In this document: piece by piece, positions 17,047 to 23,598 of the stretch
Layout of the letters: the number at the start of each line of letters is the position of its first letter
How positions within the stretch are numbered: position 1 is the first letter of the stretch
Source: a virus
DNA length: 64,000 nucleotides
Strand: one strand, 5' to 3'
UHGV virus genome: UHGV-0242533
The notes under the pieces: generated by a model
What the model was told of the DNA's origin: nothing
The model's input: the letters and a program-made list of their open reading frames with translations, nothing else
The model's database searches: none
Made by a program: the position numbers and the translations under genes

Positions 17047-17769
17047 ATGAAAGCATTTGCATTGTCAGCTATTCTAGTTTTATCTGCCATTAGTGCCCCA
17101 TCCTTTGCTCATTCTGACAAATGCTCACACTCTAAACAGTGTGAAGTCCAGCAGGGGCCGAAAGGTGATAAAGGAGAACAGGGTATTCAAGGCGAACAAG
17201 GTCCGAAAGGTGACAAGGGTGATCGCGGAGAGCAGGGCTTAAAAGGTGATACTGGATCGGCTGGCATCAATGGTACTAATGGCATTGATGGTAAAGATGG
17301 CATTGATGGTAAAGATGGCGCTCAAGGTGAAAAAGGTGATTCTGGTGCAGATGGTAAGAAAGGCGAAACTGGCCTAACTGGTGCAGCAGGTTTGAATGGC
17401 GTTGACGGATTAAATGGCAAAAATGGTAAAGATGCAGATATGTCTGCCGTTAATGCTAACGCCAAATCTATCAAAGCTCTGGAACAATCCACCAACAAAC
17501 GTTTTGCTTCTTTGCAAAAACAAGTAGACCGTAACCGTGATCATGCCTCTGCTGGTATTTCTGGCGTGGCTGCAATGGCTAACATCCCGCAAGTAAGTCA
17601 AGGATCTGCTTTCTCTGTTGGTGCTGGGGTAGGTGCTTACGATGGTGAATCTGCTCTTGCTATTGGTGTTAGTGCTCGTTTCAATGAAAACGTAGTAACT
17701 AAAGCATCAGTGGCAATGACTTCAGAGAGTGACGCTGTTCTGGGCGCTGGTGTAAGTTACGAGTGGTAA
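17047..17769 (+). CDS. Collagen-like protein with signal peptide and YadA-like C-terminal anchor
   Basis: Start taken at internal ATG with RBS. Signal MKAFALSAILVLSAISAPSFA; long GXX collagen-like repeat run; C-terminus SAGISGVAAMANIPQV...SALAIGVS...VTKASVAMT...GAGVSYEW resembles the trimeric-autotransporter anchor. Confidence 0.6.
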   Translation: MKAFALSAILVLSAISAPSFAHSDKCSHSKQCEVQQGPKGDKGEQGIQGEQGPKGDKGDRGEQGLKGDTGSAGINGTNGIDGKDGIDGKDGAQGEKGDSGADGKKGETGLTGAAGLNGVDGLNGKNGKDADMSAVNANAKSIKALEQSTNKRFASLQKQVDRNRDHASAGISGVAAMANIPQVSQGSAFSVGAGVGAYDGESALAIGVSARFNENVVTKASVAMTSESDAVLGAGVSYEW

Positions 17770-18468: not shown

Positions 18469-18765
18469 ATGACTTTAGAAGTATATAAATTCCTTTTTGT
18501 AAGCTGTTTAACTATCAGCGTTATAGGATTTATTGTTCTCAGAAACAAAGCAGCAAGCTGGGAGAGAATGTATAAATCTCTAGTACGAGTAGATGAGATG
18601 TATAATGAGAAGGTTAAAGCAACTCTTAACGATCTTATCATGCAAGTTGAAGACAGAAACAAGCGTCTTCAGAATCTCAACCATGAAGTATTACGCCTTG
18701 CTCGTGCTAATGAAGACTTGCGAGTGGCTATTGCTAAGCAGCAGGAGGTTAATAGTGAAGCATGA
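18469..18765 (+). CDS. Membrane/coiled-coil small protein (98 aa)
   Basis: N-terminal hydrophobic helix; RBS aaagggt. Confidence 0.5.
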   Translation: MTLEVYKFLFVSCLTISVIGFIVLRNKAASWERMYKSLVRVDEMYNEKVKATLNDLIMQVEDRNKRLQNLNHEVLRLARANEDLRVAIAKQQEVNSEA

Positions 18766-19012
18766 TATCAATACAGCACCTGTGGTTAAGCAGCTTAAAG
18801 ACCTAAGAGTGGGGGATGTTTTTGAAACTGTACCACATAAGAATAAGTTGTATCTTGTAGTAAAACTTGATTCTTCAACTGTTTATCAAGCCCAATGGAA
18901 ACCTGATAAAAAGGTAGTAGTAGATCTTACTTCAGATAAAGTAACAATGTTGGGAAAAGATACTGTTGTTCAGATAGTTGATAATGTTCGTCTTACTAAT
19001 AAGGTGGATTAA
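18755..19012 (+). CDS. Small protein of GDVF-motif family (GTG start with AGGAGG SD)
   Basis: Strong SD gcaggagg 6 nt before GTG; motif LRVGDVFETV...LYLVVKLD. Confidence 0.5.
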   Translation: MKHDINTAPVVKQLKDLRVGDVFETVPHKNKLYLVVKLDSSTVYQAQWKPDKKVVVDLTSDKVTMLGKDTVVQIVDNVRLTNKVD

Positions 19013-19014
19013 CA

Positions 19015-19248
19015 GTGAAAGTCAATATTAAGCATGATCATACAACGATTCGCTTAACTAACATGAAGCCTGGAGTTTTGTTTTCTTTCCGAGGCATTCT
19101 TTATATCAGAACAGATTCCACATCTGACTATCATGTTAAATGTGTTAATGTGGTATCCGGAACACTGACCGGTATCAACCGAGATGAAATCTGCCAAGTA
19201 CGCAGCGATCTCCACATAACTAACATAGAGACTAAAGATGAAGATTGA
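19015..19248 (+). CDS. Small protein, GDVF-family-like (77 aa)
   Basis: ORF track; motif PGVLFSF...YIRTD. Confidence 0.45.
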   Translation: MKVNIKHDHTTIRLTNMKPGVLFSFRGILYIRTDSTSDYHVKCVNVVSGTLTGINRDEICQVRSDLHITNIETKDED

Positions 19249-19489
19249 TCTTGAGTTTAAGAATCCAGAGCTGAAAGTGGGTGATTTGAAACTTGGAGAT
19301 GTATTCCAAGTGAAGGCAACATGTATTGACCATTACATGATTGTCCAGCTATACACACCACATGTGTCAGAGACTGATCTTCGGGAGGGTTGTGTGGTTC
19401 TTAGTTTACGTACTAATCAAGTGATGAAACTAGACTCAAACTTACCTGTTTCGGTTATCCATAATGTAGTAATTACCAATAAAGGTTAA
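19238..19489 (+). CDS. Small protein, GDVF family (83 aa)
   Basis: Motif LKLGDVFQVK. Confidence 0.45.
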   Translation: MKIDLEFKNPELKVGDLKLGDVFQVKATCIDHYMIVQLYTPHVSETDLREGCVVLSLRTNQVMKLDSNLPVSVIHNVVITNKG

Positions 19490-19491
19490 TT

Positions 19492-19812
19492 ATGTCAGTG
19501 TCCACTCGAATAACCTGTAAGCCTAAAGTGAGTATTCGTGCACAGCTTCAAAACTGTACAGGGGTAGTTCACTTGGAGTTTGAACACAGTGGAAGTCGGT
19601 ATAACGAAGGATTCACCGTAACCATCACCTCTGCATGGTTTAATTTGGTTCTCCTTCCTGATGAGGTATGCGCTGCAATTGGTGGTGTTAAGAAGGGTAG
19701 TTTAAACCTTATGTCAACCCCTGTAGGAAATGAATTGCTTTCTCTGGTTCAGAAAGGCGTATATAAAATGAACCTTATGTTAGATGCAATTACTGAAGAG
19801 AGTAAGGAGTGA
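19492..19812 (+). CDS. Hypothetical protein (106 aa)
   Basis: ORF track. Confidence 0.45.
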   Translation: MSVSTRITCKPKVSIRAQLQNCTGVVHLEFEHSGSRYNEGFTVTITSAWFNLVLLPDEVCAAIGGVKKGSLNLMSTPVGNELLSLVQKGVYKMNLMLDAITEESKE

Positions 19813-19816
19813 TTAA

Positions 19817-20035
19817 GTGGAAATTAAAGTAGTTGATTATCCTAAATATGCAAATGCAGAAGACGTTAAAGGTGGTGATGTTTTCTCTTACGATAGACGT
19901 TTCTGGCTGATGTTAGAAGATAAAACTCCTGATGGTTTGTGTAAGGCCGCCGATCTGAACAGTGGTTCTGTTGAAGTCTTTGGTCTATCAACAACTGTTA
20001 TGCCACGTCCTGATCTGTGTTTATCCCAAAAGTAA
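19817..20035 (+). CDS. Small protein, GDVF family (72 aa)
   Basis: Motif VKGGDVFSYDRRFWLMLED. Confidence 0.45.
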   Translation: MEIKVVDYPKYANAEDVKGGDVFSYDRRFWLMLEDKTPDGLCKAADLNSGSVEVFGLSTTVMPRPDLCLSQK

Positions 20036-20042
20036 CACCGAC

Positions 20043-20148
20043 TTATAGCCCTTGTGTTTATCAGAGGGCTATGTGAGGGTGTTCCTCATTAACTTATTAA
20101 TTCAGGCATATGCCACACCGCTAGGGAGAGCTTGCTCGAACATCCGGT
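20043..20148 (+). ncRNA. Conserved structured non-coding element, copy A (hairpin plus GCTAGGGAGAG...CTCGAACATCCG)
   Basis: Hairpin tagccct...agggcta then tgtgag; downstream ccgctagggagagcttgctcgaacatccggtg. A homologous element lies at 24293-24407. Confidence 0.35.
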
Positions 20149-20388
20149 GTTAGACTAAAACCTGTTAATTTTCGAAAGACTTTCTGATATGTAGGGGTAC
20201 GTATCGGTTTGGGATTCAGGAGACTTCCTAGGGGTAGGGAGTCTTCACCAGTTGGAATAAAAGGTAGCTCTAGAACCTGAACTCTTAGGCAGAGAAGGTC
20301 GGCAATGAATAGGCTACCAAGAAATTGGTGGCCTTTGTTGTTTTAATTAAGGGACAGCTCTTACTTAAACTAACAAGAGGAAGCTCAA

Positions 20389-20565
20389 ATGTCTAAGCAA
20401 ACAATCAAGAATACACAAGCTGGTTACTCTTATGTTAACTCTCCTTGCTGTGGTGCTCGTGTTAATCTGGTTAAGGAAGAGGTTCGTATCGTTCAGCGTG
20501 GCGCTACTGTTGTTCGTTCATGCTGTGTCTGTGGTAATGATATTTTTATCAAAGGTAAAGTATGA
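20389..20565 (+). CDS. Small zinc-ribbon protein (58 aa; below ORF-track cutoff)
   Basis: RBS aagagg; translation contains CC...CC...C clusters. Confidence 0.4.
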   Translation: MSKQTIKNTQAGYSYVNSPCCGARVNLVKEEVRIVQRGATVVRSCCVCGNDIFIKGKV

Positions 20566-20813
20566 AAAACTTTCAAGCTGCACCAATAACTAAAGTGATC
20601 GAAGTTGATGGTGTGATGATGACTGTTCCTCTGAACACTCGTTACATCGCAATTGACAAGATGGGTTATGTATGGGCTTGGAAGATTAAGCCTAGCTATA
20701 ACGCATTGTTTGATGAGTTTGTTTGTACTGGTACTTACAGTCCTACATTCTTAGGTTTGTTTGGAGAGTTTGATGGTAAGTATAAAATCATCACACTCCC
20801 TGCTTGTGCTTGA
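20562..20813 (+). CDS. Hypothetical protein (83 aa)
   Basis: ORF track; ATGA overlap with upstream ORF. Confidence 0.45.
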   Translation: MKNFQAAPITKVIEVDGVMMTVPLNTRYIAIDKMGYVWAWKIKPSYNALFDEFVCTGTYSPTFLGLFGEFDGKYKIITLPACA

Positions 20814-20820
20814 GGTTAGC

Positions 20821-20985
20821 ATGTTAAAGTGGTTTAAACGTCTATTCCATCTGCATGATTGGGAGACAATAAAAGAAATTCGTTTACACATATACAATGA
20901 GATCGGTCAAATAGAAGACACAGGTACTCGTTATATACTTCGATGTAAAACATGTGGTCATATCACCAAGAGAGATATGATCTAA
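20821..20985 (+). CDS. Small Cys/His protein (internal ATG of ORF 20761..20985)
   Basis: MLKWFKR...CKTCGH motif. Confidence 0.35.
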   Translation: MLKWFKRLFHLHDWETIKEIRLHIYNEIGQIEDTGTRYILRCKTCGHITKRDMI

Positions 20986-21090
20986 ATAGCTCTGCGCCGT
21001 TAGCTCAATTGTATAGAGCAGTTTCCTTCTAAGAAATTGGTTGGAGGTTAGAATCCTCCACGGTGCGCCAAATTGAATGAGAGGTGTGTT

Positions 21091-21390
21091 ATGTCATGGG
21101 GTGGTGTAATATCCTTAATCTGTATCTTCCTTGTCTGCATAGCCCTTACAGGCTGCGTACATAGCCGTCCTGATGGATGGTGTGCAGTAGCAGTGGAAGG
21201 TGTTTGTGTTTCTCGCTGGCATAAAGGTGAGAAGGTTCCTTCTGGTGAAATAGATATGCGCTGGAATGAAGCAACCTGTTCTAATGCTAACCCCTCTGTC
21301 AACGAAGAGAAATCTACACCGGATAATGTTGTGATTGATACAGCGTTGTGGTGTGGTGGCTCTGTAACAACAACCGGTAAGGAGTGGTGA
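21091..21390 (+). CDS. Lipoprotein, paralog of 12174..12503
   Basis: Signal plus lipobox ...CIALTGC; shared RPxGWCA-EG-CV-RW--G-KVP-GEIDM----A-CSN motif with the 12174 protein. Confidence 0.55.
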   Translation: MSWGGVISLICIFLVCIALTGCVHSRPDGWCAVAVEGVCVSRWHKGEKVPSGEIDMRWNEATCSNANPSVNEEKSTPDNVVIDTALWCGGSVTTTGKEW

Positions 21391-21391
21391 T

Positions 21392-21589
21392 ATGAATTAC
21401 ACATCTACAAAGGTGCTAATTGATTCGATTAATAGCTCCTCAGAAGCTGTACAGGAGCGTTTAATACAAGATGTTAGCAATGACATTAAGTTCTTTGTTA
21501 AGAGCCGACTGTTAGGTTCTAAGGCTTATTACAGAGCTAAAGCAGAGCTTACAAAGAGGGTGTTTCTTTTACATGGTTTGGTATATTAA
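21392..21589 (+). CDS. Hypothetical protein (65 aa)
   Basis: ORF track. Confidence 0.4.
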   Translation: MNYTSTKVLIDSINSSSEAVQERLIQDVSNDIKFFVKSRLLGSKAYYRAKAELTKRVFLLHGLVY

Positions 21590-21598
21590 GGAACTTAT

Positions 21599-21820
21599 AT
21601 GAAACTAGACTCTAAGCAGTCACTTAAAACCGTTGAGCTGTCCACGCTGCCAAACGGAAGTATTTTTGGTCATGATAAACACTTCTGGATTAAAACAGAC
21701 ATCATAGACGATGGATATATCACCTGTGTCAATCTTTGGAACGGCTCAGTGGATGGCTATCGCCCTAGCACAAAGGTGGTACCTCAGCCCGATGCAAAGG
21801 CTATAGGTTTAGTTTACTAA
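21599..21820 (+). CDS. Small protein, GDVF-like family (73 aa)
   Basis: Motif LPNGSIFGHDKHFWIKTD. Confidence 0.45.
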   Translation: MKLDSKQSLKTVELSTLPNGSIFGHDKHFWIKTDIIDDGYITCVNLWNGSVDGYRPSTKVVPQPDAKAIGLVY

Positions 21821-21829
21821 GGAGCCTGT

Positions 21830-22003
21830 ATGAGTTGTTTTGGTGGCGGTGAAATAGACGACGATTATGACATGGAATCTAACGGCACATGTCCTGACTG
21901 TGGGTGCGAAACATTTGATGGAGTGTCAGTATATCCTACCTGTAGTTATTCACCAGTGATCTGTAAAACATGTGGAGATCAACCTTGTGATGAGTCTTGT
22001 TAG
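21830..22003 (+). CDS. Small Cys-rich protein (57 aa; below ORF-track cutoff)
   Basis: RBS aaggag; CPDCGC...C...CKTCGDQPCDESC. Confidence 0.4.
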   Translation: MSCFGGGEIDDDYDMESNGTCPDCGCETFDGVSVYPTCSYSPVICKTCGDQPCDESC

Positions 22004-22232
22004 TGTGTTAATAGCCTATCTGATAGGATCAGTAGTATCAGGTGTTCTGATTAAGATTATAGATGTTAAAGGAAATCAGTGTTTCCGAGGTTGGGATGGT
22101 GAGCCAGACCTTGGAAAGATAGCAGCTATGGTTTTCTTGTGGCCTATTATTGCTGTACTATTTATAGCACTCGTAGCATGGGCTGCTCTTTGGGATTTCA
22201 TCCTTCCTAACAAAAAGTATGAGGACTCATGA
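21972..22232 (+). CDS. Small membrane protein (likely start at internal ATG 21990)
   Basis: Two hydrophobic helices. Confidence 0.45.
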   Translation: MEINLVMSLVSVLIAYLIGSVVSGVLIKIIDVKGNQCFRGWDGEPDLGKIAAMVFLWPIIAVLFIALVAWAALWDFILPNKKYEDS

Positions 22233-22650
22233 CTAAAGAATTTTTAGAGTGGTTTGGTGATACCTTCAAAGAGTATCTATTCTCTCCAGAAGACTTTGAA
22301 GAACTGAAAACCTACACTTGGTTGGCTTGGAGAGATAGCCGACGAGAGATGAATAAGTAATATCGTGAAGGATTCTTACGAGAGTCCTTTGAGATAGGAC
22401 TTCAGATCTCCTATCAAACTAACATTCATGTAACTAGCCCATAAGGGCGTTACCCTTTAATAACCCAGCCCACTAAGGGGGCGGGAGTTTAGTGCTGGAT
22501 TAGCATAACGCTTATTCCTACAAAGGCAACCGATTGTTAGATCTTACATGCAATATTAATTAATAGGATAAGGGAGGATTCGTCCCCTCCCCCTATTTTA
22601 TTGAATCTTTATCTAAGCAAGTCTTATATAAATGTTTAATTGGAGGATGT

Positions 22651-22962
22651 ATGAAAGCACGAAGAACTATATGGACTCCGATGCAGATTGAAAATCTTCG
22701 GAGACTAATCAAAGAGTACTCGGTTCAAGAGGTTGCTCAGATTATGAATGTAACGGAGAATGCAGTTAACACAGCTTGCACTAAATTCGGGATATCAAGA
22801 GCTTCAATCCGAGTTAAATGGTCTGAAGAAGAAGACCAGTTCCTTATCCGTAATGCTGGGTTCATGTCTATTCAGAGAATGGCTGACATGCTCGGTAGAA
22901 GTTATGCTGCTGTACAGAACAGGGCATGTATGCACCTTAATATTAGCCTGAAACTTAAATAG
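22651..22962 (+). CDS. Putative DNA-binding protein with two tandem HTH-like repeats
   Basis: Internal duplication: W-T-P-MQIENL...VQEVAQIM and W-S-EEEDQFL...IQRMADML. Confidence 0.4.
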   Translation: MKARRTIWTPMQIENLRRLIKEYSVQEVAQIMNVTENAVNTACTKFGISRASIRVKWSEEEDQFLIRNAGFMSIQRMADMLGRSYAAVQNRACMHLNISLKLK

Positions 22963-22970
22963 GAATCAAG

Positions 22971-23201
22971 ATGAATTTTGAGCTAGTACCAAAAAGCAAA
23001 ACACCCTCCAAGACTTTTTCTGACTTGGAGAATGGAGATGTTTTTCGTTTTACTGGTGACAATGTGGTCCCTAAATTCTGGATAAAAACAGGGGAACATT
23101 CTGCAATGTGTGTTCGGAACTCTAAAGATATTTTCTTTCCGGTCCCTCTGTCCAATACTGTTGATCTGTTCGAATCTAAACTTATTATTCAGGGTAAATA
23201 G
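22971..23201 (+). CDS. Small protein, GDVF family (76 aa)
   Basis: Motif LENGDVFRF...FWIKTGEH. Confidence 0.45.
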   Translation: MNFELVPKSKTPSKTFSDLENGDVFRFTGDNVVPKFWIKTGEHSAMCVRNSKDIFFPVPLSNTVDLFESKLIIQGK

Positions 23202-23202
23202 T

Positions 23203-23598
23203 ATGAAGATTACTCACAAGAAAGAAGAAGTGACTACGGTTGATCTCAACTCACTTCCCAGCGGAACTGTGTTTAAGTTTCCTGACAATGCAACCCTGTA
23301 TGTCAAAGGGTCTGTGTCTGCAAGCCCAAACGTTACCATCAACTCTGACAGAAGCACCATTAATATTAAAGTTAAGCATAAGAAAGAGAACATCCTCAGG
23401 GTTATGGATTTATTCAGAGCCGACGTCTTTACTTTAAAACAGTGTCCAACTTCCCATACCTACATGCTAACGAACCCGAGCAATGGTCTTAAGCCCGCTG
23501 GGGCGGTTAATCTGGGAACTGGAGAACTTCGGACAATTGCTGGTGATATGGTTGTTGATGAGAAGTTTAGTAAAGTCGAAATGATCTTAACTCCTTAG
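23203..23598 (+). CDS. Protein with N-terminal GDVF-like module (start at internal ATG 23203)
   Basis: Motif LPSGTVFKFPDNATLYVKGS; start 2 nt after upstream stop. Confidence 0.45.
   Translation: MKITHKKEEVTTVDLNSLPSGTVFKFPDNATLYVKGSVSASPNVTINSDRSTINIKVKHKKENILRVMDLFRADVFTLKQCPTSHTYMLTNPSNGLKPAGAVNLGTGELRTIAGDMVVDEKFSKVEMILTP

What the first reader, a model, noticed from the sequence alone, without database searches (positions are those of the whole stretch)
18755..23598. Expanded family of small early proteins sharing a G-D-V-F motif
At least seven ORFs (18755, 19015, 19238, 19817, 21599, 22971, 23203) of roughly 70-130 aa share L-x-x-G-(D/S/T)-(V/I)-F followed about 15 residues later by a hydrophobic-x-K-(T/L)-(D/G) pattern. 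Tandem expansion of a small domain in an early region is typical of host-takeover or anti-defence genes under diversifying selection.
Basis: seen in the sequence. Interest (0 to 1): 0.45.

Follow-up and report, generated by a model that had tools for sequence, protein, structure and literature searches.

The report
Small beta-barrel early-protein family, phiEco32-like phage
Seven neighbouring early genes of a phiEco32-like E. coli phage are anciently diverged copies of one small, predicted SH3-like beta-barrel protein, which is widespread in phages, has no known function and most likely binds host proteins.

Summary
The window is a phiEco32-like Kuravirus, and the seven ORFs are real, tightly packed early-region genes. 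They form one superfamily of eight domains, because ORF 23203 carries two. Pairwise searches link only A-C, B-E and D-E. Profile-profile comparison, iterated HMM searches and PHROG cross-hits connect all eight domains, each above a null built from unrelated neighbouring genes. AlphaFold2 models of two members (pLDDT 85 and 80) give a five-stranded SH3/Tudor/KOW-like barrel, and the G-x-x-F motif forms its first hairpin. No member matches Pfam, NCBIfam or a solved structure by sequence. PHROGs splits them into six families of unknown function. A family profile finds 1,433 clusters among 1.84 billion proteins, including phage N4 gp21, and none is characterised. The copies are old. Orthologue dN/dS is 0.10-0.24, so diversifying selection is not shown; variation comes from gene gain, loss and allele replacement. 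ORF 23203 is an in-frame deletion fusion of two paralogues, seen only in this genome. Function is inferred only: non-enzymatic binders of host or defence proteins is most likely. This is a sound but ordinary finding of moderate-to-low interest.

The parts
18755..19012 (+). Member A (85 aa, GTG start, overlaps the upstream gene's stop by 11 nt). Subfamily phrog_9955. phiEco32 has no orthologue; phages Paul and myPSH1131 have one at 82-87% identity.
19015..19248 (+). Member B (77 aa, GTG start). Subfamily phrog_16423. Orthologue of phi32_115 at 65% identity. Some GenBank records mislabel its orthologues 'endolysin'.
19238..19489 (+). Member C (83 aa). Subfamily phrog_9955, paralogue of A. Orthologue of phi32_114 at 73% identity.
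19817..20035 (+). Member D (72 aa, GTG start). Subfamily phrog_6570. Orthologue of phi32_113 at 96% identity.
21599..21820 (+). Member E (73 aa). Subfamily phrog_6570, paralogue of D. Orthologue of phi32_104 at 93% identity. Modelled as a five-stranded small beta-barrel (pLDDT 84.7).
22971..23201 (+). Member F (76 aa). Subfamily phrog_10911. Orthologue of phi32_98 at 97% identity, also present in N4-like Gamaleyavirus phages. It is the most divergent member: only its N-terminal half matches the family profile. The model (pLDDT 80.2) has the same structural neighbours as E.
23203..23355 (+). Member G, first part: residues 1-51 of a phi32_97-type domain (phrog_7832), truncated after about three of its five strands.
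23356..23598 (+). Member G, second part: a phi32_95-type domain (phrog_12612), complete from its residue 3 and fused in frame to the first part. The phi32_96-type gene that lies between the two in all listed relatives is deleted.

Best explanation
The seven ORFs are anciently diverged paralogues of one stand-alone domain of about 65 residues, predicted to fold as a five-stranded SH3/Tudor/KOW-like beta-barrel. They sit in the early, host-RNA-polymerase-transcribed gene block of a phiEco32-like Kuravirus. The conserved L-x-x-G-x-(V/I)-F motif forms the turn and first strand. (Y/W)-I-K-T-D is strand 2 and V-x-L-x-x-G is strand 3 plus its turn. These positions are therefore the structural core, and the rest of the surface differs between paralogues. 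The proteins carry no catalytic signature and are too small to be enzymes. The most likely mechanism, which is inferred and not shown, is that each paralogue is a non-enzymatic binding module. Early in infection each would dock onto a different host or host-defence protein and block or redirect it. The repertoire is reshuffled between phages by gene gain, loss, allele replacement and inter-paralogue deletion. Shown: homology, predicted fold, gene-order context, purifying selection, copy-number variation and the fusion. Inferred: early expression in this particular genome (by homology with phiEco32 and SU10), protein binding, and the identity of any targets.
Confidence: 0.5

Rival explanations
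1. The domain binds nucleic acid, either RNA or single- or double-stranded DNA. The paralogues would then act on phage or host transcripts or DNA, for example as translation or RNA-stability modulators or as accessory DNA-binding factors, rather than on proteins.
For: The top structural neighbours include the uL2 C-terminal domain, EF-P/eIF5A domain I, KOW and PWWP domains, which contact RNA or DNA. A Tenacibaculum protein couples five related repeats to a SprT-like metalloprotease domain, and a Crocinitomicaceae SprT-like protein has one weak copy (E 0.008). From general knowledge, SprT/Spartan-type proteases act on DNA-protein crosslinks.
Against: The phage members are mostly acidic to neutral (median pI 5.7; D has pI 4.7) with no conserved basic patch, whereas the SprT-linked repeats are strongly basic (KGEKRRTRY). 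The conserved positions are hydrophobic core or glycine turns. The link to the SprT repeats is modest (domain E 1e-6 to 1e-8) and may reflect shared fold features.
Confidence: 0.2
2. The domains are Tudor-like modules that bind host RNA polymerase, in the manner of the CarD and Mfd RNAP-interacting domains or the UvrD C-terminal domain, and so tune host transcription during takeover.
Against: These matches score no better than dozens of unrelated SH3-like barrels. No sequence signature is shared. Eight diverged paralogues are hard to reconcile with one conserved target. The known phiEco32 RNAP regulators are different proteins.
Confidence: 0.1
3. The shared motif is a chance or compositional resemblance among unrelated short ORFs, some of which may not be genes.
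For: Several pairs show no significant pairwise similarity: F against all others has E of at least 0.4, and G1-G2 has hhalign probability 0.3%. The relaxed motif is common by chance.
Against: All links exceed the null from unrelated early genes. The iterated search stays clean. Independent PHROG models cross-hit. Two independently modelled members share the same structural neighbours. Orthologues are conserved under purifying selection.
Confidence: 0.02

Closest known systems
PHROG families 9955, 16423, 6570, 10911, 7832 and 12612 (all 'unknown function')
   Same: Each window member matches one of these end to end (E 1e-28 to 1e-41) and cross-hits others at 1e-4 to 1e-7. The proteins themselves are already in databases as hypothetical proteins of Kuravirus phages.
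   Different: PHROGs treats them as separate families. Here they are shown to be one superfamily with one predicted fold.
Phage N4 gp21 and similar proteins of about 75 aa from PaP3 (ORF.65), N4-like Pseudomonas phage ZC08, and Klebsiella, Proteus, Vibrio, Erwinia and Yersinia phages
   Same: N4 gp21 matches the broad family profile at E 3e-15. All of them match the model of E in BFVD with TM-score 0.66-0.84 over their full length. All are stand-alone, single-domain and uncharacterised.
   Different: The N4 stretch searched (bases 1-30,000 of 70,153) has one copy, and each Gamaleyavirus locus of about 10 kb has one. The phiEco32-like genomes carry 5-9 copies. Sequence identity is 15-28%.
SH3-like small beta-barrel domains: Tudor, KOW, uL2 C-terminal domain, EF-P/eIF5A domain I, CarD and UvrD C-terminal domain, FeoA, VapX, HspQ
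   Different: There is no detectable sequence relationship: nothing reaches significance in Pfam or by PDB sequence search (best PDB E 0.25). No aromatic cage, KOW motif or other family signature was seen. This is a fold-level resemblance only.
Bacteroidota SprT-like proteins with C-terminal repeats (Tenacibaculum MAG protein P0106)
   Same: Five tandem repeats each match the family profile (domain E 3e-6 to 3e-8) and share the L-P-x-G-S-x-F-E-Y and Y-x-C-x-K-L pattern.
   Different: These are cellular, strongly basic and fused to a metalloprotease domain. The phage proteins are free-standing and mostly acidic to neutral.
Blocks of small early 'host-takeover' genes in other virulent phages, such as the T4 early small ORFs and the SPO1 host-takeover module (from general knowledge, not tested here)
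   Same: Many short, tightly packed, early-transcribed genes of unknown function, variable between relatives.
   Different: Here a large share of the block is one paralogous domain. No member was found in T4 bases 1-50,000.

Membership tests
phiEco32-like early small-protein superfamily (PHROGs 9955/16423/6570/10911/7832/12612) | Significant, near full-length match to the family profile | tested here: met
   best-hit E 2e-28 to 8e-41 for all seven members. G matches phrog_7832 over residues 1-51 only and phrog_12612 over residues 51-131.
phiEco32-like early small-protein superfamily (PHROGs 9955/16423/6570/10911/7832/12612) | All subfamilies are mutually homologous, so they form one superfamily | tested here: met
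   hhalign links score 23-215 against a null maximum of 18.25. Iterated HMM searches converge on all members without spurious hits. G1 and G2 are the weakest, with best probabilities of 55% and 33%.
SH3-like small beta-barrel fold (Tudor/KOW/uL2-C/EF-P domain I class) | Five-stranded, strongly bent antiparallel barrel of about 60 residues | tested here: met
Tudor / KOW / SH3 sequence families (Pfam) | Match to the family HMM above the gathering threshold | tested here: not met
   No such Pfam hit for any of 113 members at E up to 1.
Pfam DUF5475 | Score at or above the gathering threshold (25 bits) | tested here: not met
   Only member C matched, at 14.4 bits and E 0.049. That is 1 of 113 members.
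Phage host-takeover / anti-defence proteins (a functional class) | Expressed early from host-RNAP promoters | not testable with these tools
   Inferred from homology. The block is in the early class in phiEco32 (macroarray data cited in PMC8948821), and SU10 CDS 69-125 are assigned to it by homology (PMC4281155). The promoter scan in the window was uninformative.
Phage host-takeover / anti-defence proteins (a functional class) | Binds or inhibits a host or defence protein; toxicity on expression or a defence-specific plating defect on deletion | not testable with these tools
   No experimental data were found for any homologue.
Phage host-takeover / anti-defence proteins (a functional class) | Signature of diversifying (positive) selection | tested here: not met
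   Gene-wide pairwise dN/dS is 0.10-0.24. Site-specific tests were not run.
RNAP-interacting Tudor-like domains (CarD/Mfd RID, UvrD CTD) | Specific structural or sequence similarity beyond the generic barrel | tested here: inconclusive
SprT-associated C-terminal repeat domain (Bacteroidota) | Profile match of the repeats to the phage family | tested here: inconclusive
   The five P0106 repeats have domain E 3e-6 to 3e-8. The single copy in Crocinitomicaceae has only E 0.008. The reverse search was not done.

The most novel reading that the evidence does not exclude
The multi-copy beta-barrel family is a modular toolkit of inhibitors. Different paralogues would each neutralise a different bacterial immune system or host factor. 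This would explain why Gordonclarkvirinae resist almost every tested defence and restriction system although they have no known inhibitor (PMC11990801). It would also define a new anti-defence fold family with over a thousand members across phages, including N4 gp21.
Probability: 0.15. Interest if true: 0.7.

Novelty: new member of a known kind. Interest (0 to 1): 0.3.

Why it matters
The result merges six separate 'unknown function' phage protein families into one superfamily. That superfamily has a confident predicted fold, is absent from Pfam, and is large: 1,433 clusters at 50% identity, reaching model phage N4. It gives a defined and experimentally tractable set of candidates in a phage group that is common in nature, used in therapy studies, notably resistant to bacterial defence systems and poorly studied. 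As things stand it is a family assignment without a function. Multi-copy small early genes are a familiar feature of virulent phages, so a specialist would not be surprised.

Tried and rejected
- **Pfam, NCBIfam and PDB sequence searches:** none gave a significant hit for the seven proteins or for all 113 aligned members. The DUF5475, RibLong, ExbD and DUF427 hits are sub-threshold noise.
- **The search for homologous proteins with F alone:** this returned only 5 close orthologues and added little.
- **Foldseek against afdb50:** not available.
- **Promoter and terminator scan of 15.5-26.5 kb:** fewer promoter-like sites than in shuffles, so uninformative for transcription units. An alignment of four intergenic spacers showed no shared element.
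- **Long multi-stretch hits P0136 (934 aa) and P0200 (2,708 aa) in the representative search:** judged repeat-driven false positives on inspection.
- **Gamaleyavirus gene downstream of the F-like gene:** tested as a G1 relative and not similar.
- **T4 bases 1-50,000:** no member found. The rest of T4 was not scanned.
- **Literature searches:** no functional data on phiEco32-like early proteins, N4 gp21 or SH3-like anti-defence proteins. The DruSM1 knockout screen concerns an unrelated siphovirus.
- **Database product names:** the 'DNA helicase' and 'endolysin' labels on orthologues were rejected as misannotations, since no domain supports them.
Full report
**Identity of the window.** The region 18.4-24.4 kb matches 144 deposited phages. 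The closest are Escherichia phages FS2B and MN03 (93-94% identity), and phiEco32 matches at 90.6%. All belong to Kuravirus in the Gordonclarkvirinae. In phiEco32 the equivalent stretch is genes phi32_116 to phi32_91. Apart from the tRNA-Arg gene, nearly all of these are annotated as hypothetical. GC skew and ORF orientation show a long + strand block from about 10 to 54 kb, holding the early and middle genes. It is flanked by minus-strand late genes. The exact proteins of the window occur on a 71,730-bp assembled contig in the public collection.

**The observation.** The seven ORFs are present at the stated coordinates. They are tightly packed, with overlapping or abutting stop and start codons. 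Most are preceded by good Shine-Dalgarno sequences, which supports the GTG starts at 18755, 19015 and 19817. The strict first motif occurs five times in the six-frame translation of all 64 kb. All five lie in the claimed ORFs, against 0.73 expected. The other three domains fit only a relaxed version that is not specific by itself. The second motif fits strictly in three domains.

**Is it a family?** Pairwise phmmer against all 392 window ORFs gives three clear links and one borderline link: A-C 3e-6, B-E 2e-6, D-E 2e-8 and E-G 0.014. F is unlinked at this level.

- I built narrow orthologue-group profiles from 11 related phage loci plus 105 database homologues and compared them with hhalign. 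Probabilities were A-C 96%, B-E 97%, D-E 100%, A-B 79%, C-F 84%, E-F 83%, B-D 76%, E-G1 55% and E-G2 33%.
- As a null I compared the same eight profiles with profiles of 13 unrelated genes from the same early block. The 104 scores have mean 9.8, sd 2.3 and maximum 18.25. Every family domain has at least one link above that maximum (G1 25.6, G2 23.2).
- Iterated hmmsearch with inclusion at 1e-5, started from B, C or E, converges on one set. That set holds all seven window ORFs and only + strand early-region ORFs of the relatives. The best non-member scores E of about 0.3.
- Independent PHROG models place the members in six families: 9955 (A, C), 16423 (B), 6570 (D, E), 10911 (F), 7832 (first part of G) and 12612 (second part of G). 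All six are of unknown function. Cross-hits between them run at 1e-4 to 1e-7.

**Fold.** An AlphaFold2 model of E, built on a 113-sequence family alignment, has mean pLDDT 84.7 and pTM 0.70. It has five strands (22-25, 28-37, 40-45, 51-54, 59-62) and flexible termini.

- The L-x-x-G-x-I-F motif is the turn plus strand 1. W-I-K-T-D is strand 2, and V-N-L-x-x-G is strand 3 with its turn. G20 and F23 are the only nearly invariant positions apart from the initiator methionine, so the conserved signature is the structural core.
- F is the most divergent member, and only its N-terminal half matches the profile. Its model has pLDDT 80.2 and shares many BFVD neighbours with E.

**Distribution.**

- BFVD neighbours of E at TM-score 0.66-0.84 are full-length, uncharacterised proteins of 70-80 aa. 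They come from phiEco32-like phages, N4 (gp21), PaP3 (ORF.65), and Klebsiella, Proteus, Pseudomonas, Vibrio, Erwinia and Yersinia phages.
- A profile search of 1.84 billion cluster representatives finds 1,433 proteins at E of 1e-3 or better. Nearly all of the 150 best, which are the ones listed, are 65-90 aa and match end to end; a few are tandem two-domain proteins.
- N4 gp21 matches a broad family HMM at 3e-15. T4 bases 1-50,000 contain no member.
- No member matches Pfam, NCBIfam or any PDB sequence significantly.
- One bacterial protein, from a Tenacibaculum MAG, joins a SprT-like protease domain to five basic repeats that resemble the domain.

**Evolution.**

- Within Gordonclarkvirinae the copy number in the equivalent region is 9 in phiEco32 and SU10, 8 in Paul, 7 in this window (8 domains), O18-011 and myPSH1131, 6 in ECBP2 and TH34, and 5 in Bas88. 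A Salmonella Grimontviridae phage has 6, and N4-like Gamaleyavirus phages have 1.
- Clustering at 40% identity gives at least 18 subgroups. They are arranged in two hot spots, one after the phi32_116-like membrane protein and one after the phi32_99-like HTH regulator, plus singletons. Different genomes carry different combinations.
- Paralogues within the window share about 20-30% identity, whereas D, E and F are 92-97% identical to their orthologues. The duplications therefore long predate these genomes.
- Pairwise dN/dS of orthologues is 0.10-0.24, which is purifying. Most neighbouring genes give 0.0-0.16, and two (o21073 and o22229) give 0.27-0.36.
- B, C and G2 are only 65-71% identical to their nearest orthologues, with dS of 0.9-1.5, while flanking genes are 95-100% identical. 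This pattern indicates replacement by divergent alleles rather than rapid adaptive change.

**The two-domain ORF.** G (23203-23598) consists of residues 1-51 of a phi32_97-type protein joined in frame to a phi32_95-type protein from its residue 3. The C-terminal 31 residues of the first and the whole phi32_96-type gene are missing. All 30 listed deposited phages with a full match keep three separate genes spanning about 735-747 bp. In the 90% cluster of the fused protein, the other 12 members are 82-86 aa, and the fusion is seen on only 2 contigs. It is a lineage-specific deletion between paralogues, and the truncated first domain probably cannot fold on its own.

**Function.** Nothing is known experimentally for any homologue.

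- The homologous block belongs to the early class in phiEco32. It is described there as the most diverse part of the genome and as likely host-takeover genes (PMC8948821). SU10 CDS 69-125 are likewise assigned to the early class, by homology to phiEco32 (PMC4281155).
- Gordonclarkvirinae are reported to be highly resistant to tested defence systems and to restriction. They have no known inhibitor, and their molecular biology is poorly studied (PMC11990801).
- My best reading rests on five observations: the small size, the lack of a catalytic signature, the SH3-like fold, the variable charge (pI 4.7-9.3) and the variable repertoire. From these I infer non-enzymatic binding modules aimed at host or defence proteins. 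I put this at about 0.5.
- Nucleic-acid binding is about 0.2 and a specific RNAP-binding role about 0.1.
- By contrast, my confidence that this is a real SH3-like paralogous family is about 0.9.

**Verdict.** The genes are already in databases as hypothetical proteins, and multi-copy small early genes are common in virulent phages. The finding is therefore sound but of moderate-to-low interest unless a function is found.

Noticed in passing
window 17047-17769 (+): A phage-encoded protein with a signal peptide, collagen G-X-Y repeats (Pfam Collagen, 2.5e-17) and a YadA-like outer-membrane anchor (1.7e-19). This is the architecture of a trimeric autotransporter adhesin. It lies on the + strand with the early genes and is annotated 'tail protein' (phi32_119) in phiEco32.
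   Followed up: partly
window 23203-23598 (+): An in-frame deletion fuses the first 51 residues of a phi32_97-type gene to a phi32_95-type gene and removes the phi32_96-type gene. It is seen only in this genome (2 contigs). All 30 listed deposited relatives keep three genes.
   Followed up: yes
window 19492-19812 (+): An unrelated 106-aa DUF7247 gene (E 7.6e-13) sits between family members C and D. In phiEco32 and SU10 the C-type and D-type genes are directly adjacent.
   Followed up: partly
window 18469-18765 (+), 18755-19012 (+) and 19015-19248 (+), with their orthologues in GenBank: Database product names look wrong. The 98-aa N-terminally hydrophobic protein (phi32_116) and an A orthologue are called 'DNA helicase', and B orthologues are called 'endolysin' (IMEP8, EcoN5). 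No domain search supports either name.
   Followed up: partly
L013 9155-9379 (phage N4 gp21): N4 gp21, an uncharacterised gene of model phage N4 lying downstream of the RNAP genes gp15/16, is a sequence-level member of the family (E 3e-15) and a structural match.
   Followed up: partly
L015 4001-5437 (Tenacibaculum MAG) and L016 3962-4579 (Crocinitomicaceae MAG): Bacterial SprT-like metalloprotease proteins carry C-terminal basic repeats that resemble the phage domain. There are five copies in Tenacibaculum (domain E 3e-6 to 3e-8) and one weak copy in Crocinitomicaceae (E 0.008). This is a possible cellular relative of the domain.
   Followed up: partly
window 20994-21070 (+): A tRNA-Arg (anticodon TCT) lies within the early block, as in phiEco32 and its relatives.
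   Followed up: no
L005 4965-5225 and L011 4748-5008 (Gamaleyavirus, N4-like): The F-type member (phrog_10911) is shared at about 35-45% identity between Kuravirus and unrelated N4-like coliphages. This suggests horizontal exchange of single family genes between phage families that infect the same host.
   Followed up: partly
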